Positions 4,293 to 39,594 of a stretch of 64,000 nucleotides of DNA are shown piece by piece. Position 1 is the stretch's first letter. Every line of letters begins with the position of its first letter. Source of the DNA: an uncultured Bacteroidaceae bacterium (GTDB lineage: Bacteria > Bacillota > Clostridia > Christensenellales > CAG-917); the NCBI GenBank assembly GCA_964563025.1, contig CAZLVK010000001.1, positions 12,451 to 76,450 on the forward strand, written 5' to 3'. The notes below the pieces were generated by a model. It worked only from the letters and a program-made list of their open reading frames with translations. It did no database searches and had not been told where the DNA came from. Both the position numbers and the translations under genes were made by a program.

Positions 4293-5495
4293 ATGACAAA
4301 ACGAATAACCGAATATGAAGAAGATAAGCAAATAAAAAAACAACTTCTCGTACGAAACGAGTTCCTTTATTACGGAAATTCGGCTCCGTTCGATATGCCT
4401 ATTATCAAGAAACAAGATATCGACCTCGACGAAATCGAATTTCTCAGTTACGTAAACGCCAAAATCAACGACGCGGATAACAAAAACAAGACGATTCACT
4501 TTTTCACTTACGACTGGAAATTTGAGAAAGTCTATTCGGAACCTGAGAAAGAACTTGAAAAGTTGAAACAATACCGTTATTTGCTGAGTCCCGATTTCAG
4601 CATTTTCACAAACATGCCGTTACCGTTGCAAATGACAAGCATATTCAAAAACCGTTGGTGCGGTGCATATTGGCAAAGCAAAGGGCTGAAAGTTATCCCG
4701 ACCGTTTCTTGGGGAGATAGAAATTCTTTCGACTTTTGTTTCGAGGGCATAGAAAAAGGCTCTACGGTCGCGGTCTGCACTTACTATCGCGAAAATTGCG
4801 AAGAAGAATTTATGCTCGGTTACAATGAAATGTTGAAAAGAATACAACCTCAAGCAATACTTTGCTACGACGAGCCGTTCGATTCGATGAAGGGCAACGT
4901 CAGAGAGTTTTTGCCCACAACCTATGAATGGACAAAAAATTTAGATTGGAAAGACCTTGCGCAATTTAAGTGGGAAAAGCATAACCGTAACGTATCCGGG
5001 CTCAATCCTGCCGATTTCAAATTTTTCGACTATGTAGATCCGCTTGCAAAAACTACGATAACGAAGTGTTCTATCTGCGGAGGACTTGCAATGCAAGACG
5101 ATTACGGCAACGGCGAATGTACGAATTGTGGTTGGGAATTCAGCGCAGACGAAGAAGAATTCGAGCGCAAACTCGGCATCAGTTATCCTATGCTCGTTTC
5201 TCCTACCACTGCCCGCGAACAATATAAACGAGGACTACCCTTCAAAGCGACTTTCGACGAATTCATCAAAGGTCTCAAATTCTATGCCGAAATGTTGTTC
5301 AAGCACGACGGTTTTGCATACGCCGTATATCTGACGAGCGACGACCGCATCAGATTAGACTTGAAGACAACCTATATAGAATTCGAGACCGAAGAGGAAT
5401 TCAGAAACACCGCCGCTATTGAGGACGGACGACTGCTTAAAGATATTTGGGACGAAATCGATTTTGCAGGATTTATGTATTGCGGTGAGCCTTAA
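4293..5495 (+). CDS. DUF4417-like domain protein with C-terminal zinc-ribbon (CPCC-like) extension
   Basis: The N-terminal half carries HFFTYDWKFEKVY and NRWCGAYWQSKGLKVIPTVSW, which I associate with DUF4417. Further along, CSICGG...CTNCGWEF is a four-Cys ribbon resembling the CPCC Cys-rich family. 400 aa. Confidence 0.6.
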   Translation: MTKRITEYEEDKQIKKQLLVRNEFLYYGNSAPFDMPIIKKQDIDLDEIEFLSYVNAKINDADNKNKTIHFFTYDWKFEKVYSEPEKELEKLKQYRYLLSPDFSIFTNMPLPLQMTSIFKNRWCGAYWQSKGLKVIPTVSWGDRNSFDFCFEGIEKGSTVAVCTYYRENCEEEFMLGYNEMLKRIQPQAILCYDEPFDSMKGNVREFLPTTYEWTKNLDWKDLAQFKWEKHNRNVSGLNPADFKFFDYVDPLAKTTITKCSICGGLAMQDDYGNGECTNCGWEFSADEEEFERKLGISYPMLVSPTTAREQYKRGLPFKATFDEFIKGLKFYAEMLFKHDGFAYAVYLTSDDRIRLDLKTTYIEFETEEEFRNTAAIEDGRLLKDIWDEIDFAGFMYCGEP

Positions 5496-7038: not shown

Positions 7039-7071
7039 GTCATTCCGAGAGTCATAATACTCGGACTGCAC
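7039..7071 (+). repeat. partial copy of the GTCATTCCGAG dispersed repeat, with local hairpin
   Basis: gtcattccgaga matches the 5' end of the repeat family seen at 7367, 7459 and 39559. TCCGAG-agtcataata-CTCGGA forms a hairpin. Confidence 0.5.
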
Positions 7072-7366
7072 TCTTTCGGAGACGGAACACGAGGCGCAAC
7101 GCGCCGAGCCGGCGAGTGTTGAGCGGAGCCGTTTAGCACAAGCGACTGCGTGCATTGGGTTCGCGTAGCGGCACGCACAAAGCGCAGTGACATAACGAGG
7201 AACGTCGCTTAGCGCGAAACCGAGTGTGTCCCCCTGCGCAAGCAGTCGACGTGGGTTCCCCGTAGAGGGGGAACGTCGATTGGGGAAACACGTGAGGAAG
7301 AGGGAAATTTAGATTAAGGTGCAAGCACTACCCTCTTTGTCGCTTTCAAGAAAGCGATGACGGTAC

Positions 7367-7402
7367 GCTTCCGCGAGATTCCCACGCTCCGCTCGGAATG
7401 AC
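7367..7402 (-). repeat. dispersed intergenic repeat (GTCATTCCGAGCGGAGCGTGGGAATCTCGCGGAAGC)
   Basis: The reverse complement of 7367..7402 is nearly identical to 39559..39594, with 2-3 mismatches over about 33 nt. It shares both ends with 7459..7505. Confidence 0.8.
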
Positions 7403-7410
7403 AATCGGGC

Positions 7411-7556: not shown

Positions 7557-7963
7557 TAATTTAACCAAAACGGAAATTTTGCGGAACTACAAATTGAGTT
7601 TTGAGTCGGCAAGAGTTGTAGCAAAAAATTTTCGTTGCGGAGAAGTTGCGTTGCAAGTGCCGTCAGAACGATTTTCCTCCGGAAAATCGCCGACGGCTTC
7701 GCAGCATAAGCAACCGTGTTTCGCATATACACGCTTAATTTTTCATCGTCAAACGCAATATTCGTAAATTTTAGACAATTTTCGTATAATTATTCAAAAA
7801 CGTTGAATTTTTTAATAAATCTTTCACATTTCCGACAAAAATTGCATAAAATTAAATTTATGAAATTTTTCAAAACCCCCCAATTTTTTAATGTTGTTTT
7901 AATAATTGGCAAAAATAATGCGCTTGTAAGACAAGTTCTTACACATCTTTGTTTCAGCTTGCG

Positions 7964-8054
7964 CTCAGCCGTCTACGCAAGTCTTGTAATCCTTCCTTAA
8001 TCCCCTACTCTACGGCTGAGAAAAAAGCACCGCATCATTGCGGTGCTTTTTTTT
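7964..8054 (+). ncRNA. candidate small RNA (stem-loop with CU-rich loop plus intrinsic terminator)
   Basis: CTCAGCCGT (7964-7972) pairs with ACGGCTGAG (8012-8020). The enclosed loop contains CCTTCCTTAATCCCCT. A terminator hairpin with a T-run follows immediately. No credible ORF is present, and the 5' end is undetermined. Confidence 0.3.
8021..8054. terminator. bidirectional rho-independent terminator
   Basis: AAAAAAGCACCGCA-tcat-TGCGGTGCTTTTTTTT, with an A-run upstream and a T-run downstream. Confidence 0.8.
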
Positions 8055-8147
8055 GCGACAGTTCGGATTGCGTTTTCATTCGCAAGGCAAACGGTTACTT
8101 CATATCTTGACCCGCCTTGATGCTAAAATGAAATCATTCGCCTTATA

Positions 8148-8178
8148 TAAAGACACACCGCGGTTGCGGTGTGTCTTT
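8148..8178 (-). terminator. terminator of the 8192..8812 gene
   Basis: An 11-bp stem AGACACACCGC/GCGGTGTGTCT with a 4-nt loop lies just downstream of the stop on the minus strand. The U-tract is short (TTTATATAA). Confidence 0.6.
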
Positions 8179-8191
8179 CGCTCGTTGATTA

Positions 8192-8812
8192 TTAGAGTGC
8201 CTTGACGATTTCGATAAGTCCGAGGACGCGTTTCAATGCAAGTTTGCTGTTGACCTTGAATTGGAAGGGAACCTCTTCGTAGACTTTCTTGTGTCCCATA
8301 TTGACGTGAGGAGTTTTGCCGTCGTTGAATTCGGGAGCGTCGGGATCGAGAGGGAGATTGATACGCAAGGACGTGCCGATGATGGTAACCTTTGCGATGA
8401 TGTCCCCGTTTCTGCGATAGGTGTCGCATTGCTTGGAAACTCTGGACTTGATTTTGGGTTCGCCCTTCTCGGTGGTGGTGAGAGCGGTCTTGATGATTTC
8501 GTAACGCTCCTTGACGATTTCGTCGGAGAGTGCGTACTTCTCGGCGAAAGTGAGGCTCTTGCGGTTTGCTTTCTTCTCCATGACTTTTTCGTAGTCGAAT
8601 TTTTTGCCGAGGGAGGAAGTCAAATCTTCGACCGCGACTTCGGGTTCGACTTTTTGTTCGTTCATCTTTTCAAAAGCGGTGGCGCAAGGGGTTGCGTCCG
8701 TCTTATCGCAGAAAGTGCAATAATCGTAGCGACCGCACATATCTATATGATTGGTTTCGGAATCCAACCATTTTTGCAAATCCATTTTTTCTTGAAGGGC
8801 TTTTTTGTCCAT
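8192..8812 (-). CDS. hypothetical Cys-motif protein (206 aa)
   Basis: Natural K/E-rich composition. The N-terminal cluster is CGRYDYCTFCDKTDATPC. A terminator lies downstream. The overlapping + ORF 8261..9004 is a shadow. I recognised no family. Confidence 0.65.
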   Translation of the reverse strand: MDKKALQEKMDLQKWLDSETNHIDMCGRYDYCTFCDKTDATPCATAFEKMNEQKVEPEVAVEDLTSSLGKKFDYEKVMEKKANRKSLTFAEKYALSDEIVKERYEIIKTALTTTEKGEPKIKSRVSKQCDTYRRNGDIIAKVTIIGTSLRINLPLDPDAPEFNDGKTPHVNMGHKKVYEEVPFQFKVNSKLALKRVLGLIEIVKAL

Positions 8813-8949
8813 GGAATCTCCTCATTGCAATTCGGCATTCTAATCGCCTTTAATTTTCGACAACATTATAACAAAAATATAGTTTTTGTCCAACCTTTTT
8901 TACGGTTTTTTTTGACAATATTTTTAATTAATGCAATTAGTTTACCGCT

Positions 8950-9636
8950 TTACGGATTTTCCTTTGTTTCATTCCCGCCGTTTTCCCGCATTTTCGCGAA
9001 ATAAACCGACGGACGCACGTTGTTCATCGTGACGATTTTGTCGAGTCCCCTGACTTCGATATATTTTTGTATCGTACTGCGGTGTACGCCGAGCCGTTTC
9101 GCGATGGCGGTATAGGTCTTTCCGCGCCTCAGCATACTGACGATTCTATCCTCTTTCCCGTCGAGTTTATAGCGTTTATTCTTGCTCCCATAAGGTCGTC
9201 CGAGAGTTTTGCCCTCGTCTTTCATACGAGCCAAAGCCTCTTTCGTGCGCTGGGATATGAAGTTTCTCTCGATCTCCGCGGACAGCCCGAAGGCAAAAGC
9301 AAGGACTTTCGATTGCAAGTCGTCGCCGAGCCTGTATCCGTCCCGAATCGTCCACACCCTACACCCTTTTTCGAGGCAAATGTTGAGGATTTCCATGACC
9401 ATAAACAGCGTCCTGCCGAACCGTGAAATCTCGGTAGCGACGAGGGTATCTCCCTCTTTGACGTTTTTAAGTAGCGCACCGAGCCGACGCTTGTCGATAC
9501 TCATAACGCCCGAGATAGTCTCCTCGAACCAAACGTCCACCTCGATGCCGTTATCCCTGCAAAATCTTTCGATTTCGTAACGCTGATTCTCAAGCGTCTG
9601 TTTCTCCGTACTCACGCGGATATAGCCGTAAACCAT
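8950..9636 (-). CDS. small serine recombinase (resolvase/invertase family)
   Basis: MVYGYIRVSTEKQ...ATEISRFGR is the catalytic-Ser N-terminal domain, and there is a C-terminal HTH (GKTYTAIAKRLGVHRSTIQKYI). The start was set at ATG 9636 behind GGAGG. Confidence 0.9.
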   Translation of the reverse strand: MVYGYIRVSTEKQTLENQRYEIERFCRDNGIEVDVWFEETISGVMSIDKRRLGALLKNVKEGDTLVATEISRFGRTLFMVMEILNICLEKGCRVWTIRDGYRLGDDLQSKVLAFAFGLSAEIERNFISQRTKEALARMKDEGKTLGRPYGSKNKRYKLDGKEDRIVSMLRRGKTYTAIAKRLGVHRSTIQKYIEVRGLDKIVTMNNVRPSVYFAKMRENGGNETKENP

Positions 9637-9810
9637 AGTTGTAACCTCCTGAGTTTTTTCACAACTATACCCGTCTCGGTCCCGAAAATCCAACAAAACG
9701 ACGATTGCAACAAAAATTTATTAAAAGCAGCCCTTTCTCTTTTAGGTTTGCATCTACGCCATATCGCAATTAGTTTTCAGAGGTCCGCGATGAAACCCTC
9801 GCACCGCACG

Positions 9811-9838
9811 AAAAAGCCCCATCCAAAGATAGGGCTTA
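9811..9838 (-). terminator. terminator downstream of the IMPase-family gene
   Basis: The minus strand reads AGCCC-tatctttggat-GGGGCTTTTT. Confidence 0.6.
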
Positions 9839-9872
9839 ATCACTAATTATTCCGTCCGTGTAGCACACGAAA

Positions 9873-10631
9873 CTATTTCACGATGACGGATTTCAGATAT
9901 TCGAGAGTTTTCGGAGTGCCGGCGATTATCGTGGTGGGCGTGTCGAACTGCAAGGGATTGCCTTTATAGTCGCAAAGCGCACCGCCCGCTTCTTCGAGGA
10001 TAAGGGACGCCGCCGCATAATCCCAAGGTTTCAAGCGTTTTTCAAAGTAGCCGTTTATTCTCCCCGCCGCGATATAGCAAATCGCAAGTGCGGACGAACA
10101 CATACGTCTTAAATCAAGGCAGTTTTTGAATATTTCTTTGCCGTAGGCAAACGCCTCGTCCGCCTCACCTTTGAGCGTCGAGCCCGCTCCGAACTCTATA
10201 AGGCTGTCGTGAGGTTCTCTATCCACGGCGTAGATGCGCTTGCCGTTGAGATACGCTCCCTCACCTCTGACGGCGGTGAAAACCTCGTCCATATAGGGAT
10301 TGTAGACCACGCCGTAAACGATTTTGCCGTCCTCGTACAAGCCGAGAGAGACAGAACTGAGCCTATAATCGAACACCAAATTCGTGGTGCCGTCAATAGG
10401 ATCGAGGATATATCTGCGATTTGCAAGTTCGCCTACGTCCTCTTCTTCGCTCATGAAGCCCGCTTGGGGATCGATTTCGAGCAACTTGCTCTTCACGTAA
10501 TTGCTCACTGCAAAATCGACCTTTGTGACGTAGTCCGCCTCTCCTTTCATGCTTATGCTGTTGCGCAACTCCTCGCTGAACACGATTGATTTTGCGCCGA
10601 TTATCATTTCGGTTATTTTATTATAATCCAT
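9873..10631 (-). CDS. inositol monophosphatase family phosphatase (SuhB/CysQ-like)
   Basis: Carries the ILDPIDGTTN and WDYAAASLILEEAGG motifs of the IMPase/FBPase superfamily. Confidence 0.9.
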   Translation of the reverse strand: MDYNKITEMIIGAKSIVFSEELRNSISMKGEADYVTKVDFAVSNYVKSKLLEIDPQAGFMSEEEDVGELANRRYILDPIDGTTNLVFDYRLSSVSLGLYEDGKIVYGVVYNPYMDEVFTAVRGEGAYLNGKRIYAVDREPHDSLIEFGAGSTLKGEADEAFAYGKEIFKNCLDLRRMCSSALAICYIAAGRINGYFEKRLKPWDYAAASLILEEAGGALCDYKGNPLQFDTPTTIIAGTPKTLEYLKSVIVK

Positions 10632-10633
10632 AT

Positions 10634-11698
10634 TTAGTCCTCGTCCGAGAAAAAGTCTATTACGTATTTATTTCTTCCTTCTTCGGTTGCAAATATTTCG
10701 ACTCTGCATTCTTTGCCGTCTTTTCCTTCCGTGACGGCATCTTGCGACCTTCCGTGTAACACGTTGCCGTACTCGTCGTCCATGTAGTCTATTTCAAACT
10801 TATGTATGCCGTCCCTTACGCCTTCGCCGATTACTTTGTCTCCGTTCGTTTCCTCGTCGCATTTTTGAGCCTTGTAAATGCCTTCTATTTTCTTGCTTGC
10901 GACGTCTAACGAATAACTCCCCGACCAAAGCGTATACTTTCTTGTATTGACGGTGATTTTAGGATTGCCGTCCTCGTCCTCAACGACTTTCGCCTTGTAA
11001 TTTTTGCCATTGACGAACTCCAATTTATAACCGCCGTCACCGCGTTTGATTTCCACTTGACCGACTCTCAAATAGTCCTTGCGTTTTGCGCTTATCACGT
11101 GGCAATGATAATAAATTCCGGGTTTGATATGTTTTTCTATTTCCGCATCCGAGACGTTTTTGCTCCAACCGACAAAGGATTTATTCTTGAACCCGCTTTG
11201 CACGAATTGATTGATATTTTCGTACACGTGGTCGACGGGAGCGACTTTCATAAAAGACTTGCCCATGACTTCGCGTGCGAACGCAATTTGAGAGCGAGTG
11301 TCTTCCGCACTCTGGAAAGCGTATAGTTTCTCAAGTTCCTCATCGCTTTTTTCGTCGACGTTATTATTGACCATATCCGCCAACTCTTGCAAAATCACGA
11401 CGAGCATATTCGCCTTTTTTGTATCGATAGCGTATTTATACTCTTTCTCCGTCCAACTCGTGCGGTTTATATCGTTCTTATCCCGACTGCCGTACGTCGT
11501 GCCCATAATGAGAATGAACATATCCGCATCGTCGATGAGTTTAGTTATATTGCCGAAACCGTTATTCGCATCGACGACGAAATGCTCCATCTCAACGGGG
11601 AACACGTTGTTGTCGAGAAAGCACGACGTAACTTTTTCGCGGATTTCTTTCAGCGACGAAAAGTTCGACGACAGAAAAGCCGTATACAGATTGGGCAT
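10634..11698 (-). CDS. DUF4062 (TIR-like/deoxyribosyltransferase-like) domain protein with uncharacterised C-terminal domain
   Basis: The start was set at ATG 11698 behind GGAGG. The N-terminus YTAFLSSNFSSLKEIREKV...FPVEMEHF...DADMFILIMGTTYGS...SWTEKEYKYAIDTKKANMLVVI follows the DUF4062 pattern as I remember it. About 190 beta-rich C-terminal residues match no family I know. Confidence 0.7.
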   Translation of the reverse strand: MPNLYTAFLSSNFSSLKEIREKVTSCFLDNNVFPVEMEHFVVDANNGFGNITKLIDDADMFILIMGTTYGSRDKNDINRTSWTEKEYKYAIDTKKANMLVVILQELADMVNNNVDEKSDEELEKLYAFQSAEDTRSQIAFAREVMGKSFMKVAPVDHVYENINQFVQSGFKNKSFVGWSKNVSDAEIEKHIKPGIYYHCHVISAKRKDYLRVGQVEIKRGDGGYKLEFVNGKNYKAKVVEDEDGNPKITVNTRKYTLWSGSYSLDVASKKIEGIYKAQKCDEETNGDKVIGEGVRDGIHKFEIDYMDDEYGNVLHGRSQDAVTEGKDGKECRVEIFATEEGRNKYVIDFFSDED

Positions 11699-11726
11699 AG
11701 CGTACCTCCGAATTCCCTTTTCTAAG

Positions 11727-11755
11727 ATTATATACGCTAATAGCGTATTTTTCAA
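11727..11755 (-). promoter_or_regulatory. sigma-70-type promoter of the DUF4062/IMPase unit, with palindromic spacer
   Basis: The minus strand reads TTGAAA-aatacgctattagcgta-TATAAT with a 17-nt spacer. The palindrome ATACGCT-att-AGCGTAT (11732..11748) overlaps the -35/spacer/-10 region. Confidence 0.65.
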
Positions 11756-11813
11756 GCACTAATTGTCTATTACGCCCTTTTTGACGCTCCGAGTGTTCAA
11801 AAAAGCGTCCCGA

Positions 11814-11840
11814 CGAAAAAGGTCCGAACAAATCGGACCT
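11814..11840 (-). terminator. terminator of the MBL-fold hydrolase gene
   Basis: The minus strand reads GGTCCGA-tttgt-TCGGACCTTTTT. Confidence 0.75.
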
Positions 11841-11845
11841 TGATT

Positions 11846-12592
11846 TTACAATTCGTATATTTCGTTGTCGCGGGCAAGGGAAACGTTCGTGCCGTCAATC
11901 AACTCCGCTATTCTGCGTTTGTCGTCCTCGCTCCATTCCGGGTTTTGGTGCACGAGAAGAACCTTCCCGAACCTATCGAGAGGTATATCGCCGAGGAGTT
12001 TTTCGACGGACGTATGTTTGCTACCCTCGCTACTCTTGATTTCCCAACATTCGTGGAGAAGAAGTTTTGCGGGAGTTACGTTTTCCCACGCGGATTTTTC
12101 GATAATCGTATCCGTCGCGTAGACCAAGTCGTCGTCAACGGATATTCTGAAAGACGGTGCGCTGTGCGTTTGCGCCGTCACGCCTATATGAAGGTCGCCT
12201 ATATCGAAATCCTTTCCCGCATAGTCTATGCAACTCACGCTCTTTGAGAACTTGTCGATATCTCTCGAAAAGAACGCCGTCTGCAACAACTCTTTCATAT
12301 ACTCGTGAGTGGTTTTCTCGTATACGGGTTTGCCGGGACCGTAAATGCGCAACTCCTTATCCGCGATATACGGCAACAAATAGATGAGTCCGATAAGGTG
12401 GTCGAGATGATAGTGGGACAAGATTATCGATATTCTATCGTACTTTTTTATGACGTCGAGATATTCGGACATCCTTGCGACTCCCGTGCCCGCATCCAGC
12501 AAAACAAGTTCGCCTTTGCTTTCGAGCATAAAGCAACTCGTGTGGTTTTCTTTCGGTATCCAGCCGCCGCTGCCTAACAGATATAATTTCAT
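11846..12592 (-). CDS. MBL-fold metallo-hydrolase (RNase Z-like)
   Basis: HYHLDHLIG (HxHxDH motif) and an N-terminal LLGSGG. Confidence 0.85.
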   Translation of the reverse strand: MKLYLLGSGGWIPKENHTSCFMLESKGELVLLDAGTGVARMSEYLDVIKKYDRISIILSHYHLDHLIGLIYLLPYIADKELRIYGPGKPVYEKTTHEYMKELLQTAFFSRDIDKFSKSVSCIDYAGKDFDIGDLHIGVTAQTHSAPSFRISVDDDLVYATDTIIEKSAWENVTPAKLLLHECWEIKSSEGSKHTSVEKLLGDIPLDRFGKVLLVHQNPEWSEDDKRRIAELIDGTNVSLARDNEIYEL

Positions 12593-12611: not shown

Positions 12612-13409
12612 TTATTCGAGCGGGATTTTCGTTTCGACGTGCTTATGGAACACGCTGAAATGCGTGAAGCCGATTTCTTTCAGGAGTTTGCAGGTCTCGG
12701 AATACTTCTTGACGAGTTCGTTGTTGTGAGAATCCGAGCCGAACGAAATTTTTCTTCCGCCGAGTTCGTAATATCTTTTCAAAATTTCGACGGACGGGAA
12801 CAACTCCGTATGCGTATTGACTTCAAGAGCTTTATTTCTTTCGATTATACCCTTCAAAATCGCGTCGAATTTGTCGGGATAGTCGGCGTAACGCAAGGAC
12901 TTGTCTCGGTAAGGAGCGTTCCTCGTCACGTAGCCGATATGTGCGACTATATCGTACTCGTAAGGAGCGCCGAGACTCGACAAAATCGCGTCGAGATAAC
13001 CGCTGTACATTTTCGCTTTGCTCTTGAACCAGAACGCACGAGAGAAGTATACGTCCCAGCCGTAAACGAAGTGGACGGAATTGATGACCGCGTCAAATTC
13101 GTAACGCGGGAGCAAGTCTTTCAGCACGCTCTCTGCGGGTTTAGACCACCCCGCTTCTATGCCGAAGCACAAATCCAAATCGTCGCCGTCGAGGGAGTTT
13201 TTGACCTCTTGCCACTCTTTTCGATAATTGTCGAGGTTGATATGTCTCCAGGGAATGGGAGTATGCCCGCCACACTTCAAATCCATATCGAGGTGGTCGG
13301 TGGTGCAAAGATAGGACACGCCGTTTGCTTTCGCTTGGCGCACGATTTCGGCAATCGTATCCTTGCCGTCCGAACTATGATGGGTGTGGACGTGAGAGTC
13401 TACTTTCAT
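12612..13409 (-). CDS. PHP-domain phosphatase (histidinol-phosphatase HisJ-like)
   Basis: The MKVDSHVHTHHSSDG N-terminal HxH motif and overall PHP pattern. Its start overlaps the alaS stop (ATGA). Confidence 0.8.
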   Translation of the reverse strand: MKVDSHVHTHHSSDGKDTIAEIVRQAKANGVSYLCTTDHLDMDLKCGGHTPIPWRHINLDNYRKEWQEVKNSLDGDDLDLCFGIEAGWSKPAESVLKDLLPRYEFDAVINSVHFVYGWDVYFSRAFWFKSKAKMYSGYLDAILSSLGAPYEYDIVAHIGYVTRNAPYRDKSLRYADYPDKFDAILKGIIERNKALEVNTHTELFPSVEILKRYYELGGRKISFGSDSHNNELVKKYSETCKLLKEIGFTHFSVFHKHVETKIPLE

Positions 13410-15193
13410 TCAAGAACCGCCTTTATACGTCTGATTCCCGCCGATGAACTCTGTTCTTTGACGATACGGAACTTTCCGAGTTCCCCGGTAGTCGCGGCGT
13501 GAGGGCCTCCGCAAATCTCTTTGCTGGAGCCTATCGTATAGACTTTGACGACTTCGCCGTAACGGTCGCCGAACACGCCGATTGCGCCTTGGTCGCGCGC
13601 CTCTTCAACGGACATTTCTTCGCACTTGACGGTGGCGTTCGCTTGGATTTCGGAATTCACGACGTCCTCTATAGCCTTGATTTCCTCCGCGGTCAAGGGA
13701 CGAGGGAAGTTGAAGTCGAAACGAAGTCTTTCGGGAGTGATATTGCTACCCTTTTGCATTATGCCGTCGTCGCCGAGCACTTTTTTGAGTGCGTAGTTAA
13801 GAAGGTGCGTTGCGCTGTGGAGTCTTGCGGTTTGTTCACCGCCGTCCGCGAGACCGCCTTTGAACTTTTGTTCCGCACCCGCCTTGGATTTGGCTTGGTG
13901 TTCCTCGAACGCCTTGTTATATCCCGCCATATCCACGTCGAAAGAGTGTTCCTTTGCAAGTTCCGCGGTCATTTCGATGGGGAATCCGAAAGTGTCGTAA
14001 AGTCTGAACGCGGTTTTGCCGGGGAAAACTTTCATACCTTCGGGAAGATGGGCGAGAATTTTGTCGAATTCTTTGAGCCCTTGCTCGACGGTCTTGGAGA
14101 ATTTCTCTTGTTCGAGGGAGAGTTCTTGTTGGATTCTGTCCGCATTCTCCGCAATATTCTTGTATACGTCGCCGTATTTTGCGACGAAGAGAGCGGAAAT
14201 TTCGTTCAACGCGTCGTATCCTATGCCGAGAGTTCTGCAATAGCGCATCGCTCTACGGATAAGACGACGGAGAATATAGCCTTGATCGACGTTCGAGGGA
14301 GAAATGCCCTTGACGTCCCCTATCATAAAGGTTGCGGTACGAGTGTGATCCGCAATTATGCGCATAGCCTTGGTGATTTCTTCGCTTTCACCGTAAGTCT
14401 TGCCGGATAGTTCTTCGAGTTTTTTGATAGCGAAGTCGAAGAGGTCTGTTTCGTAGACGGATTTGTAGCCGTTCAAAATGCAAAGCATTCTTTCAAAGCC
14501 CATGCCTTGATCAACGTTCTTTTTCTCCATAGGTGCGTAGTTGCCTTCCGCGTCCTTAAAGTATTGCATGAAAACGTTATTGCCGATTTCGATATACTTA
14601 CCGCAGTCGCAAGCGGGAGAACAATCCTCCGAGCAGGCGGGTTTGCCGGTGTCGATGAACATTTCGGTATCCGGACCGCAAGGACCGGTGGTACCGCAAG
14701 GTCCCCACCAGTTATGTTTTCTGTCAAGGAAGAAAATCTGTTCGTCTTTGAGTCCGAGGCTGCGCCAAATGTTTGCGCTTTCCTCGTCGCGGGGGCAAAC
14801 GTCGTCTCCCGCAAACACGCTGACGGCAAACTTGTCAAGGTCGAATTCGAGGTGATTAATCAAGAAATCATATGCCCACTTTATGGCGTCCTCTTTGAAA
14901 TAGTCGCCGAGAGACCAACTTCCGAGCATCTCGAAAAACGTGCAGTGAGACGCATCGCCGACTTCGTCAATATCACCTGTACGCACGCAAATTTGCACGT
15001 CGGTAAGGCGGTTGCCCGCGGGGTGTTTTTCGCCGAGAAGATACGGAACGAGGGGGTGCATACCCGCCGTAGTAAATAACACCGTCGGATCGTTTTCGGG
15101 TATAAGCGACGCAGCCTTAATCACTGCGTGAGAGTGTTCGCGATAAAAGTCAAGGTACGCCTTGCGCAGTTCTACTGAATTGAGTTTTTTCAT
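13406..15193 (-). CDS. alaS: alanine--tRNA ligase, short form (595 aa, no C-Ala domain)
   Basis: The class II core is present (FTTAGM, FFEMLGSWS, GMGFER), as are the editing-domain motifs HSATHLL and CGGPH. The ORF ends right after the editing core. Confidence 0.9.
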   Translation of the reverse strand: MKKLNSVELRKAYLDFYREHSHAVIKAASLIPENDPTVLFTTAGMHPLVPYLLGEKHPAGNRLTDVQICVRTGDIDEVGDASHCTFFEMLGSWSLGDYFKEDAIKWAYDFLINHLEFDLDKFAVSVFAGDDVCPRDEESANIWRSLGLKDEQIFFLDRKHNWWGPCGTTGPCGPDTEMFIDTGKPACSEDCSPACDCGKYIEIGNNVFMQYFKDAEGNYAPMEKKNVDQGMGFERMLCILNGYKSVYETDLFDFAIKKLEELSGKTYGESEEITKAMRIIADHTRTATFMIGDVKGISPSNVDQGYILRRLIRRAMRYCRTLGIGYDALNEISALFVAKYGDVYKNIAENADRIQQELSLEQEKFSKTVEQGLKEFDKILAHLPEGMKVFPGKTAFRLYDTFGFPIEMTAELAKEHSFDVDMAGYNKAFEEHQAKSKAGAEQKFKGGLADGGEQTARLHSATHLLNYALKKVLGDDGIMQKGSNITPERLRFDFNFPRPLTAEEIKAIEDVVNSEIQANATVKCEEMSVEEARDQGAIGVFGDRYGEVVKVYTIGSSKEICGGPHAATTGELGKFRIVKEQSSSAGIRRIKAVLE

Positions 15194-18190: not shown

Positions 18191-18751
18191 TTAATATGAC
18201 ATTTGCGCAAAATAGTAACTCGCACCGTCAACGATAGGGAGCGAGGACACGCCGACACTCGAATAGAAGAAAGTCACGCTCTTATGTTCAAGCGTTTGAT
18301 AACCGCCCGTAGGAGTGAAATTATAGTTTTCGTCGTAAGTTCCGTTCGGAGATTTGAGGTTGTCGTCGTCTATCGTGTGGAACACAGAAATATAGTGCGA
18401 CGCATCGTAATACAAGTCGTTCAACTGTGTGATAAACGCGCCGTAACTTCCGCCACTGGACGCAAACGCCGTCAACTTGTTTTCTTCGACGAGGTCGCTC
18501 AAAACGTAGAAAACTTTGTTCTCTTTCGTGGACACCGCAATAGGTTCTTCGTCGCCGACGTAAATCGTGATATTCTTCACTTGGTCATTGGCTTCGTAAC
18601 CCGTGAGTTTGTCTTGCAAATCGCTGATTTGTTGCTGAAGTTTATCGATTTGGGACTCTCCGTCGTTGCACGCGACGAACAGCACCGCACTGACGGACAG
18701 CACGACTGCAAGCAAAATTGCAACCAATATTTTTGAAACTTGTTTGGACAT
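18191..18751 (-). CDS. lipoprotein, DUF4430-like (putative corrinoid-binding)
   Basis: The start was set at ATG 18751 (MSKQVSKILVAILLAVVLSVSAVLFVAC|N lipobox). The upstream part of the tracked ORF is the riboswitch. The beta-rich C-terminal domain resembles DUF4430. Confidence 0.6.
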   Translation of the reverse strand: MSKQVSKILVAILLAVVLSVSAVLFVACNDGESQIDKLQQQISDLQDKLTGYEANDQVKNITIYVGDEEPIAVSTKENKVFYVLSDLVEENKLTAFASSGGSYGAFITQLNDLYYDASHYISVFHTIDDDNLKSPNGTYDENYNFTPTGGYQTLEHKSVTFFYSSVGVSSLPIVDGASYYFAQMSY

Positions 18752-18992
18752 ATAAAAAACCTCCCGTCCTTTAATCCGTTTCGGGAGGTAATACGAAAGC
18801 CTACCTCCGTCTCCCACCGAAACGGTTGTCTCGTCATTCAGGCCGGTCTCCCGACTCGGACGACAGGGGTATCTGTCGGAGTGCCTTCCTCTTTCGAGTG
18901 GCATAATCTCATCACTTCCTCACGGTAGCGGGGGCTGTGTCGGATTTTCACCGCTCTTCCCGATTATCTTGCCTTCGCAAGCACCTGAAATC
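18752..18992 (-). promoter_or_regulatory. cobalamin (B12) riboswitch with terminator/RBS-sequestering expression platform
   Basis: The minus strand contains GGGAAGAGCGGTGAAAATCCGACACAGCCCCCGCTACCGTGA, then GCCACTCG, then the B12 box AGTCGGGAGACCGGCC. Next come the alternative hairpins GGAGGTA/TACCTCC and CCTCCCG/CGGGAGG plus TTTTTT. The 3' arm of the terminator is the GGAGG RBS. Confidence 0.9.
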
Positions 18993-18998
18993 ATTGCT

Positions 18999-19027
18999 AT
19001 TTTAGCACAATCGCACCGCATATGCAA
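18999..19027 (-). promoter_or_regulatory. promoter of the cobalamin riboswitch unit
   Basis: The minus strand reads TTGCAT-17 nt-TAAAAT. Confidence 0.6.
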
Positions 19028-39461: not shown

Positions 39462-39558
39462 CATTTACATCGGCGCGTCGCGCCTCGAGTTCCGTCTCCG
39501 AAAGAGTAATTGCGTATACTCACCCGCCCATAGTGCAGTTCGAACAAAAACAATCATA

Positions 39559-39594
39559 TCATTCCGAGCGTAGCGTGGGAATCTCCCGGAAGGG
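39559..39594 (+). repeat. dispersed intergenic repeat (TCATTCCGAGCGTAGCGTGGGAATCTCCCGGAAGG)
   Basis: Near-identical to the reverse complement of 7367..7402. Confidence 0.8.

What the first reader, a model, noticed from the sequence alone, without database searches (positions are those of the whole stretch)
9873..11755. DUF4062 (TIR-like) protein with a novel C-terminal domain, translationally coupled to an IMPase-family phosphatase
Seen: a 354-aa protein has an N-terminal third that follows the DUF4062 pattern (FLSS...EIREKV...PVEMEHF...DADMFILIMGTTYGS...SWTEKEYKYA). Its beta-rich C-terminal roughly 190 aa (…YYHCHVISAKRKDYLRVGQVEIKRGDGGYKLEFVNGKNYKAKVV…) match nothing I know. The gene looks AT-richer than its neighbours. 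It has its own consensus promoter (TTGAAA-17-TATAAT) with a 7+7 palindrome spanning the spacer, and it follows the terminator of the upstream gene. Its stop lies 2 nt before the start of an IMPase/SuhB/CysQ-family gene. Known: DUF4062 is a Rossmannoid domain related to TIR and nucleoside-deoxyribosyltransferase folds. It recurs at the N-termini of STAND/NTPase proteins in conflict systems, and IMPase-superfamily enzymes dephosphorylate inositol phosphates or nucleotides such as pAp. Inference: a two-gene nucleotide-processing module, for example a TIR-like nucleotide cleaving or signalling enzyme paired with a phosphatase that matures or degrades the product. This would be a candidate compact defence or stress system. 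Alternatively the IMPase gene is plain housekeeping and the adjacency is incidental.
Basis: partly seen in the sequence, partly recalled or inferred. Interest (0 to 1): 0.55.

Follow-up and report, generated by a model that had tools for sequence, protein, structure and literature searches.

The report
NADase-barrel protein with dedicated phosphatase partner
This is a real, tightly conserved two-gene operon of gut Clostridia: a TIR-like (DUF4062) enzyme of the kind recently shown to destroy NAD+ during phage infection, fused to a previously undescribed beta-barrel domain, plus an inositol-monophosphatase-family phosphatase; it is most likely a new variant of the recently described 'NADase plus phosphatase' anti-phage systems.

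Summary
On the minus strand lie a 354-aa gene (11698..10634) and an IMPase-family gene (10631..9873), 2 nt apart, with their own promoter and terminator. The first has a DUF4062 domain (Pfam E=3.7e-16) with a TIR-like predicted fold and the F8 and S-W-T-x-x-E86-Y motifs. Three 2026 preprints show DUF4062 ('NIR') is a NAD+-degrading anti-phage effector.

The C-terminal 180 aa fold confidently (pLDDT 90) into an antiparallel beta-barrel with no Pfam, NCBIfam, PADLOC or PDB relative.

In all 58 loci with this architecture (27-100% identity; nearly all Clostridia MAGs), the IMPase gene follows directly, while flanking genes differ. DUF4062 proteins without the barrel lack the IMPase.

The barrel also occurs behind two transmembrane helices instead of DUF4062. 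In two such loci the same IMPase clade is adjacent, in reversed gene order.

Best reading (inferred): the barrel senses a phosphorylated small molecule that activates the NADase or membrane effector, and the phosphatase removes basal ligand. This parallels Vesta (NIR plus alkaline phosphatase) and Metis.

Against: neighbours are mostly housekeeping, with no defence-island enrichment, and nothing has been tested experimentally. I rate it a new variant of a known kind.

The parts
11727..11755 (-). sigma-70-type promoter TTGAAA-17-TATAAT of the two-gene operon. The spacer holds a 7+7 palindrome that is not conserved in orthologues.
11704..11709 (-). ribosome-binding site GGAGGT, 5 nt before the ATG
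   Evidence: conserved in L001 and L006
10634..11698 (-). gene for the 354-aa NIR(DUF4062)-stalk-barrel protein
11399..11698 (-). aa 1-100: DUF4062/NIR TIR-like catalytic domain. Family-wide conserved residues: F8, S10-S11, E38, D56, D59, G66, Y69-G70, S81-W-T83, E86-Y87.
   Evidence: motif named in 10.64898/2026.06.25.731849
11174..11398 (-). aa 101-175: helical linker or stalk (helices 104-111, 119-125, 131-145, 155-171), counted by Foldseek as part of the TIR-like fold
10637..11173 (-). aa 176-354: new antiparallel beta-barrel domain with a short N-terminal helix and a C-terminal helix. Residues conserved in at least 95% of the 52 NIR-barrel proteins include G177-W178, H198, H200, Y209, R211, G213, N233, G297, H299, G316, D320, F336 and R342; most of these also recur in the two-TM variants.
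9873..10631 (-). gene for the 252-aa IMPase-family phosphatase. Metal and catalytic motifs are intact (E62-E64, D77-P-I-D80-G-T-T, W203-D204). It starts 2 nt after the upstream stop.
9809..9837 (-). intrinsic terminator-like hairpin plus U-run that ends the operon
11814..11841 (-). terminator hairpin plus U-run of the upstream MBL-fold gene, which insulates the operon

Best explanation
This is a two-gene, abortive-infection-type anti-phage (or anti-invader) system.

Gene 1 encodes an effector-sensor fusion. An N-terminal NIR/DUF4062 TIR-like NAD+ glycohydrolase is joined by a helical stalk to a cytoplasmic beta-barrel. The barrel binds a phosphorylated small-molecule 'alarm' metabolite. Ligand binding drives activation, probably through oligomerisation, and NAD+ depletion follows.

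Gene 2 is translated from the same mRNA. It encodes an active IMPase-family phosphomonoesterase that continuously dephosphorylates basal amounts of that ligand and so prevents self-activation. During infection the ligand rises above what the phosphatase can remove, or the phosphatase is inhibited, and the NADase fires.

Likely ligand classes, judged from what IMPase-family enzymes hydrolyse: nucleoside 2'- or 3'-monophosphates, 3',5'-bisphosphates such as pAp, or 2'-phospho-ADP-ribose-type compounds.

Shown: the operon anatomy, the domain identities, conservation of the catalytic motifs, strict co-occurrence of the two genes, and the effector swap on the barrel.

Inferred: NADase activity of this member, ligand sensing by the barrel, the safety role of the phosphatase, and the defence function.
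For: 1. Domain identity. DUF4062 hit (E=3.7e-16). Predicted TIR-like fold: RPS4 TIR E=1.5e-4, TM 0.62; also SARM1, SPARTA TIR-APAZ and AbTir. Invariant F8 and S81-W-T-x-x-E86-Y87 align with the F11 and E87-Y88 catalytic motif of Evangelion-type proteins. NADase and anti-phage activity have been shown experimentally for several DUF4062 proteins (preprints read).

2. Pairing. In 58 of 58 loci with NIR-barrel proteins (pairwise identity down to 27%), an IMPase gene sits -32 to +40 nt downstream on the same strand, and no other neighbour is shared. Pairwise identities of the two proteins correlate at r=0.89.

3. Controls. Nineteen DUF4062 loci without the barrel have no IMPase. Seventy-four more distant IMPase loci have no barrel gene.

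4. Effector swap. The barrel also follows two N-terminal TM helices in place of DUF4062. In L086 and L105 such a TM-barrel gene sits directly after an IMPase of the same clade. The phosphatase therefore tracks the barrel rather than the NADase, as MisB tracks both MisA and MisC in Metis (10.1101/2025.11.05.686725).

5. Precedent. Vesta is a small NIR protein with an uncharacterised C-terminal putative ligand-binding domain plus a tightly linked phosphatase.

6. Evolutionary rate. The sensor-effector evolves faster (median 37% identity) than its partner (58%).

7. Distribution. Flanking contexts vary. In the window lineage a 4.2-kb block (the pair, a serine recombinase and a 206-aa gene) occurs in two different genomic settings. 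L084 has a ThsB-like TIR gene next to the pair.
Against: - No PADLOC model hits either protein.
- Among 112 non-redundant neighbours, few have defence hits and most are housekeeping genes such as IscS/NifU, IMPDH, PheRS, AlaRS and PFOR. There is no defence-island signal.
- The pair is absent from the phage, plasmid and viral-contig collections.
- Within some lineages it sits in stable synteny across species, as a housekeeping operon would.
- Three TM-barrel genes are orphans without an IMPase.
- At least one IMPase of the clade (L085) has no barrel partner.
- No ligand, NADase activity or phage phenotype has been measured for this family. In Vesta the phosphatase's role is itself unresolved.
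Confidence: 0.5

Rival explanations
1. Metabolic or housekeeping module. The IMPase is the lineage's ordinary SuhB-like phosphatase. The NIR-barrel protein is a metabolite-regulated NAD(P) or nucleotide N-glycosidase used in normal nucleotide or NAD turnover, for example NADP to NAD by the IMPase and then regulated NAD cleavage. It is not an immune system.
For: - Neighbourhoods are mostly housekeeping with no defence enrichment.
- Synteny is stable within some lineages.
- IMPase-clade members can occur without a barrel gene (L085).
- The IMPase is closest to SuhB/IMPase structures, and IMPase-family enzymes include NADP phosphatases (NCBIfam hit NF010678).
- The gene's GC is only slightly atypical.
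Against: - The same barrel is fused to a two-TM module instead of the enzyme, and that version still pairs with the IMPase. This makes no sense for an NAD-feeding pathway.
- The family is small and sporadic: about 60 clusters at 50% identity among 1.84 billion representatives.
- Every DUF4062 protein tested so far is an immune NADase.
- The sensor-effector diverges faster than its partner.
Confidence: 0.2
2. The phosphatase acts as signal generator or substrate supplier rather than as a safety. Either the IMPase converts a precursor into the dephosphorylated molecule that activates the barrel, or it converts NADP(H) to NAD(H) so that the NADase can drain both pools. It may also process the 2'-phospho-ADPR product.
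For: Tight translational coupling and co-inheritance fit any obligatory partnership. The IMPase catalytic motifs are invariant. The IMPase family includes NADP phosphatases.
Against: IMPase pairing with the TM-barrel versions argues against an NAD-linked role. The characterised analogues use the phosphatase to remove the activator (Metis MisB), or it is dispensable for defence (Vesta VstB).
Confidence: 0.12
3. Stress- or toxin-antitoxin-like growth-arrest module unrelated to phages. The barrel senses an endogenous stress metabolite such as pAp or RNA-decay nucleotides. The NADase imposes dormancy, and the phosphatase resets the system.
For: Same anatomy as above. There is no defence-island context. 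Carriers are chromosomal, gut-anaerobe lineages.
Against: No precedent exists for DUF4062 outside immunity in bacteria. The effector swap between NADase and TM domains is the hallmark of abortive-infection effectors.
Confidence: 0.1

Closest known systems
Vesta (VstA + VstB), bioRxiv 10.64898/2026.09.04.749371
   Same: A two-gene operon. It has a small NIR/DUF4062 NADase protein with an uncharacterised C-terminal domain proposed to bind a ligand, plus a tightly linked phosphomonoesterase. The catalytic Glu lies in the same motif.
   Different: The partner here is an IMPase-family enzyme (PF00459), not an alkaline phosphatase. The hosts are gut Clostridia, not Pseudomonas. A profile of the barrel found only about 60 clusters of this same 330-390-aa or TM-barrel type. 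No phenotype is known for this family.
Metis types I and II (MisA or MisC + MisB), bioRxiv 10.1101/2025.11.05.686725
   Same: The logic is shared: a ligand-activated NAD+-depleting or membrane effector plus a phosphatase that removes basal activator. The same phosphatase accompanies either an enzymatic or a transmembrane effector, as seen here for NIR-barrel and TM-barrel proteins.
   Different: None of the three proteins is homologous. MisA is a calcineurin-like NAD+ diphosphatase and MisB is a HAD phosphatase. The Metis ligand is m6dAMP; the ligand here is unknown.
Single-gene DUF4062 systems: Evangelion (Eva01), Swarozyc (KpSwz), Vulcan, NIR-Avs
   Same: A homologous N-terminal NADase core with the F and S-x-T-x-x-E-Y motifs, followed by a helical stalk and a variable sensing region.
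   Different: Those systems sense phage proteins or replication through helical, HEAT or STAND modules and have no phosphatase partner. Identity to plasmid DUF4062 proteins is 26-36% and confined to the first 188 aa or fewer.
SuhB/IMPase (for example E. coli SuhB, PDB 2qfl and 6tqn)
   Same: The second gene product is a full-length IMPase-fold protein with all metal-binding motifs. Best PDB matches have E about 1e-41 to 1e-37.
   Different: It scores far below the NCBIfam equivalog cut-offs for SuhB (140 against 332 bits), HisN and CysQ. It belongs to a distinct clade (at least about 50% identity, at least 290 bits to a clade HMM) that is mostly found beside barrel-domain genes.
Small-molecule-activated effectors with swapped TIR or TM heads (TIR-/TM-STING, PycTIR/PycTM, Cap15). 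This comparison is from general knowledge and was not tested here.
   Same: One sensor domain is combined with either a TIR-like NADase or a short TM module. Cap15 is likewise two TM helices plus a small beta-barrel.
   Different: No cyclase or other signal synthase is linked here. The barrel shows no detectable sequence relation to known sensor domains. Its best PDB structural matches are weak, to lipocalins, nitrobindin, haemophores and PsbO.

Membership tests
DUF4062 / NIR TIR-like NADase domain | Match to Pfam PF13271 above the gathering score | tested here: met
   59.5 bits against a cut-off of 24.7, E=3.7e-16, aa 8-90. 48 of 61 wider family members also match.
DUF4062 / NIR TIR-like NADase domain | TIR-like flavodoxin/Rossmannoid fold | tested here: met
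   AF2 model with pLDDT 80. Foldseek hits to TIR domains of RPS4, L6, RPP1, SARM1, AbTir and SPARTA, best E=1.5e-4, target TM 0.6.
DUF4062 / NIR TIR-like NADase domain | Conserved catalytic Glu (E-Y in the acidic S-x-T region) and N-terminal aromatic residue | tested here: met
   F8, S81, T83 and E86 are at least 95% conserved in 52 proteins, and Y87 follows E86 (Y or F in the wider family). They align with the corresponding residues of a staphylococcal plasmid DUF4062 protein. The motif is described in 10.64898/2026.06.25.731849.
DUF4062 / NIR TIR-like NADase domain | NAD+ hydrolysis to ADPR and nicotinamide | not testable with these tools
   Needs an enzyme assay.
DUF4062 / NIR TIR-like NADase domain | Enrichment next to known defence genes | tested here: not met
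   PADLOC hits among 112 non-redundant neighbours are few, and some are IscS or GlgB false positives. Nine window neighbours gave no hit and the adjacent MBL gene only a weak one (E=0.0027).
Vesta (VstAB) | Small NIR protein with an extra C-terminal uncharacterised domain | tested here: met
   354 aa: NIR, stalk and a 180-aa barrel.
Vesta (VstAB) | Partner gene is an alkaline phosphatase | tested here: not met
   The partner is PF00459 Inositol_P.
Vesta (VstAB) | C-terminal domain homologous to that of VstA (WP_274410426.1) | not tested
Vesta (VstAB) | [quoted passage not shown] | tested here: met
   58 of 58 loci, gap -32 to +40 nt.
Metis | MisA calcineurin-like phosphoesterase or MisC TM effector, plus MisB HAD phosphatase | tested here: not met
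   No PF00149 or PF13419 match; the domains are DUF4062 and Inositol_P.
Metis | The same phosphatase pairs with either an NAD-depleting or a transmembrane effector (a working principle, not homology) | tested here: met
   IMPase with NIR-barrel (58 loci) and IMPase with 2TM-barrel (L086, L105). Three TM-barrel genes are orphans.
IMPase / SuhB / CysQ superfamily (gene 2) | Pfam PF00459 match with the metal-binding motifs (EE, DPxDGT, WD) | tested here: met
   E=4.4e-50. E62-E64, D77, P78, D80-T83, W203 and D204 are at least 95% conserved.
IMPase / SuhB / CysQ superfamily (gene 2) | Equivalog-level assignment to SuhB, HisN, CysQ or FBPase/IMPase | tested here: not met
   Best is 140.5 bits against a cut-off of 332 (SuhB). 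All others are also below their cut-offs.
Lipocalin / calycin-type barrel (C-terminal domain) | Up-and-down antiparallel barrel with a flanking C-terminal helix and significant structural similarity to members | tested here: inconclusive
   The AF2 topology fits (short helix, 8-10 strands, C-terminal helix; pLDDT 90). Foldseek matches to lipocalins, nitrobindin, haemophores and PsbO are weak: E at least 1e-3, TM at most 0.46. The PDB sequence profile found nothing.

The most novel reading that the evidence does not exclude
The C-terminal barrel is a new family of cytoplasmic small-molecule sensor domains. It can drive either a NIR NADase or a two-helix membrane effector. Its ligand is a phosphomonoester that the dedicated IMPase-clade enzyme keeps low in healthy cells. 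This would be an undescribed immune system of gut Clostridia that detects a by-product of infection, for example 2'/3'-nucleotides or pAp-type products of RNA or cofactor breakdown. It would also be the first immune role for the IMPase fold.
Probability: 0.4. Interest if true: 0.75.

Novelty: new variant of a known kind. Interest (0 to 1): 0.6.

Why it matters
DUF4062/NIR was recognised as an immune NADase only in 2026. The principle of a ligand-activated effector plus a phosphatase that clears the ligand (Metis, possibly Vesta) is equally new.

This family would extend that principle in four ways:
- a third, unrelated phosphatase fold (IMPase);
- a new sensor domain;
- an unknown alarm metabolite;
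- strictly anaerobic gut and rumen Clostridia, where very few defence systems have been characterised.

The pairing rule gives a direct experimental handle. Whatever the IMPase hydrolyses is the candidate activator, so the ligand can be found by substrate screening.

If the housekeeping reading is right instead, the pair would reveal a regulated NAD-cleaving step in Clostridial metabolism.

Tried and rejected
- **Incidental adjacency:** rejected by 58 of 58 conservation with unrelated flanks.
- **Promoter palindrome as operator:** rejected, because it is not conserved in L001 or L006.
- **A third conserved gene:** none found; only the two genes cluster across loci. An MBL-fold gene is adjacent in two independent contexts only.
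- **Defence-island context:** PADLOC and Pfam scans of neighbours show no enrichment.
- **Phage or plasmid carriage:** viral contigs, the phage collection and PLSDB gave only N-terminal DUF4062 matches or nothing.
- **Flanking direct or inverted repeats around the pair in the window:** none convincing.
- **Known fold for the barrel:** Foldseek against PDB and BFVD and a PDB sequence profile gave nothing significant. A cupin-like reading of the HxH motif was dropped, because the model is a meander barrel and no cupin appears among the top 50 Foldseek PDB matches.
- **Searches that failed:** two related-loci runs failed because the alignments were too diverse. The word-indexed search with TM-barrel proteins found only four proteins.
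- **TIR_2 matches:** seven wider-family members match TIR_2. I treat these as cross-matches of the same TIR-like domain, not a separate architecture.
- **Looking for Vesta among barrel-less DUF4062 loci (L055-L073):** abandoned as unspecific.
Full report
**Anatomy.** Both genes lie on the minus strand. The first runs 11698..10634 (354 aa from the ATG) and is preceded by GGAGGT at 11709..11704. Upstream is a TTGAAA-17-TATAAT promoter at 11755..11727. The second gene runs 10631..9873 (252 aa) and starts 2 nt after the first gene's TAA stop. A hairpin plus U-run after the upstream MBL-fold gene (about 11841..11814) and another after the second gene (about 9837..9809) delimit a discrete two-gene transcription unit. 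The first gene is slightly AT-richer than its surroundings: 44.7% GC against 48.3% for the window.

**Gene 1, N-terminal part.** Pfam gives DUF4062 (PF13271) at E=3.7e-16 over aa 8-90. PADLOC and NCBIfam give nothing. An AlphaFold2 model of the whole protein (pLDDT 80) has an alpha/beta domain plus helices over aa 1-175. Foldseek matches this to TIR domains: RPS4 at E=1.5e-4 with target TM 0.62, then L6, RPP1, SARM1, SPARTA TIR-APAZ and AbTir, with DNPH1 lower down. In 52 non-identical family members F8, S10, S11, E38, D56, D59, G66, Y69, G70, S81, T83, E86, Y89 and A90 are at least 95% conserved. F8 and S-W-T-x-x-E86-Y87 align with the matching residues of a staphylococcal plasmid DUF4062 protein. 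They correspond to the aromatic F11 and catalytic E87-Y88 motif described for Evangelion.

**What is known about DUF4062.** Three 2026 preprints show experimentally that DUF4062 (renamed NIR) is a TIR-like NAD+ glycohydrolase and acts as the effector of anti-phage systems. These systems are Swarozyc, Evangelion, NIR-Avs, Vulcan and Vesta.

**Gene 1, C-terminal part.** Residues 176-354 match no Pfam, NCBIfam or PADLOC family and no PDB sequence. A profile of this region was searched against 1.84 billion representative proteins. It found 71 proteins, 44 of them below 1e-10. Five of the 71 are repetitive false positives. Most true hits are 330-390 aa with an N-terminal DUF4062 (48 of 61 scanned; 7 match TIR_2). 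About ten are 217-283 aa proteins in which two N-terminal transmembrane helices replace DUF4062. With this wider alignment, AlphaFold2 gives a confident model (pLDDT 90, pTM 0.85): a short helix, 8-10 long antiparallel strands and a C-terminal helix. Foldseek finds only weak similarity to lipocalins, nitrobindin, haemophores and PsbO in the PDB, with E at least 1e-3 and TM at most 0.46. Nothing significant appears among viral structures. Residues conserved across both the NIR and the TM versions include H198, H200, Y209, R211, N233, W258, H299 and D320. They sit at alternate strand positions, as expected for one face of a barrel. My inference from this is a polar ligand pocket.

**Gene 2.** This is a full-length IMPase-fold protein (PF00459, E=4.4e-50). 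It is closest to SuhB/IMPase structures (E about 1e-41) but scores far below every NCBIfam equivalog cut-off. All metal-binding and catalytic motifs are conserved in the partners, so it should be an active phosphomonoesterase.

**The pairing.** Close homologues of gene 1 (45-96% identity) in nine metagenomic loci all have the IMPase gene directly downstream. These loci fall into four unrelated contexts. A scan of one genome per GTDB species, seeded with a distant subgroup, returned 44 full-length loci. Nearly all are Clostridia MAGs from ruminant, other animal or human guts (Oscillospiraceae, Acutalibacteraceae, Christensenellaceae and others); one is binned as Bacteroidaceae. Every one has the IMPase gene next. 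Two further subgroups show the same arrangement. In total 58 of 58 loci carry the pair, with intergenic gaps of -32 to +40 nt. Clustering of neighbours shows that only these two genes are shared. Pairwise identities of the two proteins correlate at r=0.89. The IMPase is the more conserved partner: median 58% against 37%. This correlation partly reflects species phylogeny, so it shows co-inheritance rather than proving interaction.

**Controls.** Nineteen DUF4062 loci from other phyla that lack the barrel also lack the IMPase. In the reverse direction, a metagenome scan seeded with the partner IMPases returned 80 loci. The 74 with IMPases of 47% identity or less have no barrel gene. Among the closer ones:
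- L083 has the NIR-barrel gene upstream.
- L084 probably does too, cut by the contig end. It also carries a ThsB-like TIR gene and a multi-TM gene downstream.
- L085 is unpaired.
- L086 and L105 (the latter with assembly frameshifts) have a 2TM-barrel gene directly after the IMPase.

Three other TM-barrel genes are orphans.

**Interpretation.** The phosphatase follows the barrel domain across a change of effector (NADase to membrane module) and across a change of gene order. That is the pattern reported for Metis. There the HAD phosphatase MisB accompanies either the NAD+-degrading MisA or the transmembrane MisC and removes basal activator (m6dAMP). Vesta is the nearest described architecture: a small NIR protein with an uncharacterised C-terminal putative ligand-binding domain plus a tightly linked alkaline phosphatase. 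I therefore favour a ligand-activated NADase whose activator is a phosphomonoester kept low by the co-translated IMPase. IMPase-family substrates suggest 2'/3'-nucleotides, pAp-type bisphosphates or 2'-phosphorylated ADP-ribose derivatives. All of this is inference.

**Evidence against a defence role.** Neighbourhoods are mainly housekeeping and show no enrichment of PADLOC families. The pair is absent from the phage, plasmid and viral-contig collections. In some lineages it is syntenic across species. There are some hints of mobility. In the window lineage, a 4.2-kb block (the pair, a serine recombinase, a 206-aa gene and an AT-rich spacer; window 11764..7613) recurs at 74-80% nucleotide identity in L001 behind different upstream genes. 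IS66 fragments flank L086.

**Literature.** The searchable literature has no report linking an IMPase-family protein to phage defence. None of the three DUF4062 preprints mentions inositol or IMPase.

**Verdict.** The finding is best filed as a new variant of the NIR-plus-phosphatase kind of system, with a new sensor domain and a new phosphatase fold. It has not been tested experimentally.

Noticed in passing
window 7040-7403 (related pieces to about 7560); short copy at window 39470-39592; L001 7181-7461, 12187-12226 and 5374-5407: A non-coding, MITE-like repeat with terminal inverted repeats (GTCATTCCGAG ... CTCGGAATGAC) and internal GC-rich repeats (CGGGTGTCCCCGCCC). A roughly 120-bp derivative made of its two ends lies elsewhere in the window. 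In L001, copies flank the block that carries the pair and the recombinase. No Rfam family matches.
   Followed up: partly
window 7613-9713 (serine recombinase 8950-9636 minus strand; 206-aa gene 8192-8812 minus strand; AT-rich 7600-8050): A resolvase/invertase-type serine recombinase and an unannotated 206-aa gene lie directly downstream of the pair. They travel with it as a block in L001 (different upstream context) and L006. The repeat beyond the block is inverted relative to the block when the window is compared with L001.
   Followed up: partly
window 11846-12592 (minus strand); L054 9464-10222: An MBL-fold hydrolase lies next to the pair. It has weak RNase Z and cyclic-nucleotide phosphodiesterase matches, and its L006 orthologue carries a precomputed Anti-Pycsar Apyc1 Pfam hit. 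It is upstream of the pair in the window and L006. A 39%-identical homologue sits directly downstream of the pair in the Bacteroidaceae-binned locus L054. That is only two independent contexts.
   Followed up: partly
L084 965-1372 and 1569-2177: Directly after an IMPase of the partner clade lie a 135-aa ThsB-like TIR protein (PF08937, E=5.6e-19) and a 202-aa multi-TM protein. This may be a Thoeris-like module adjacent to the pair.
   Followed up: partly
L086 3174-3830 and 5984-8391: The IMPase plus TM-barrel locus is flanked by IS66 transposase fragments upstream. Downstream are a 481-aa unannotated protein and a radical SAM/SPASM protein.
   Followed up: no
window 18824-19003 (minus strand): A cobalamin riboswitch (Rfam RF00174, 83 bits) overlaps the 5' end of the mechanical ORF 18191..18904, so the true gene start is probably further downstream.
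   Followed up: no
L005 8001-9026 (protein P0012): The barrel half of this homologue is out of frame from about residue 270. It is either a pseudogene or an assembly error. The IMPase downstream is intact.
   Followed up: no
window 12612-15193 (minus strand): A short 595-aa alanine-tRNA ligase (NF002436) overlaps by 4 nt a HisJ-family PHP phosphatase, and the MBL gene follows. This apparent AlaRS-PHP-MBL operon is conserved in L006.
   Followed up: no
window 4293-5495 (plus strand): A 400-aa protein with a DUF4417 domain (E=6.9e-55) of unknown function, next to an M18 aminopeptidase gene.
   Followed up: no
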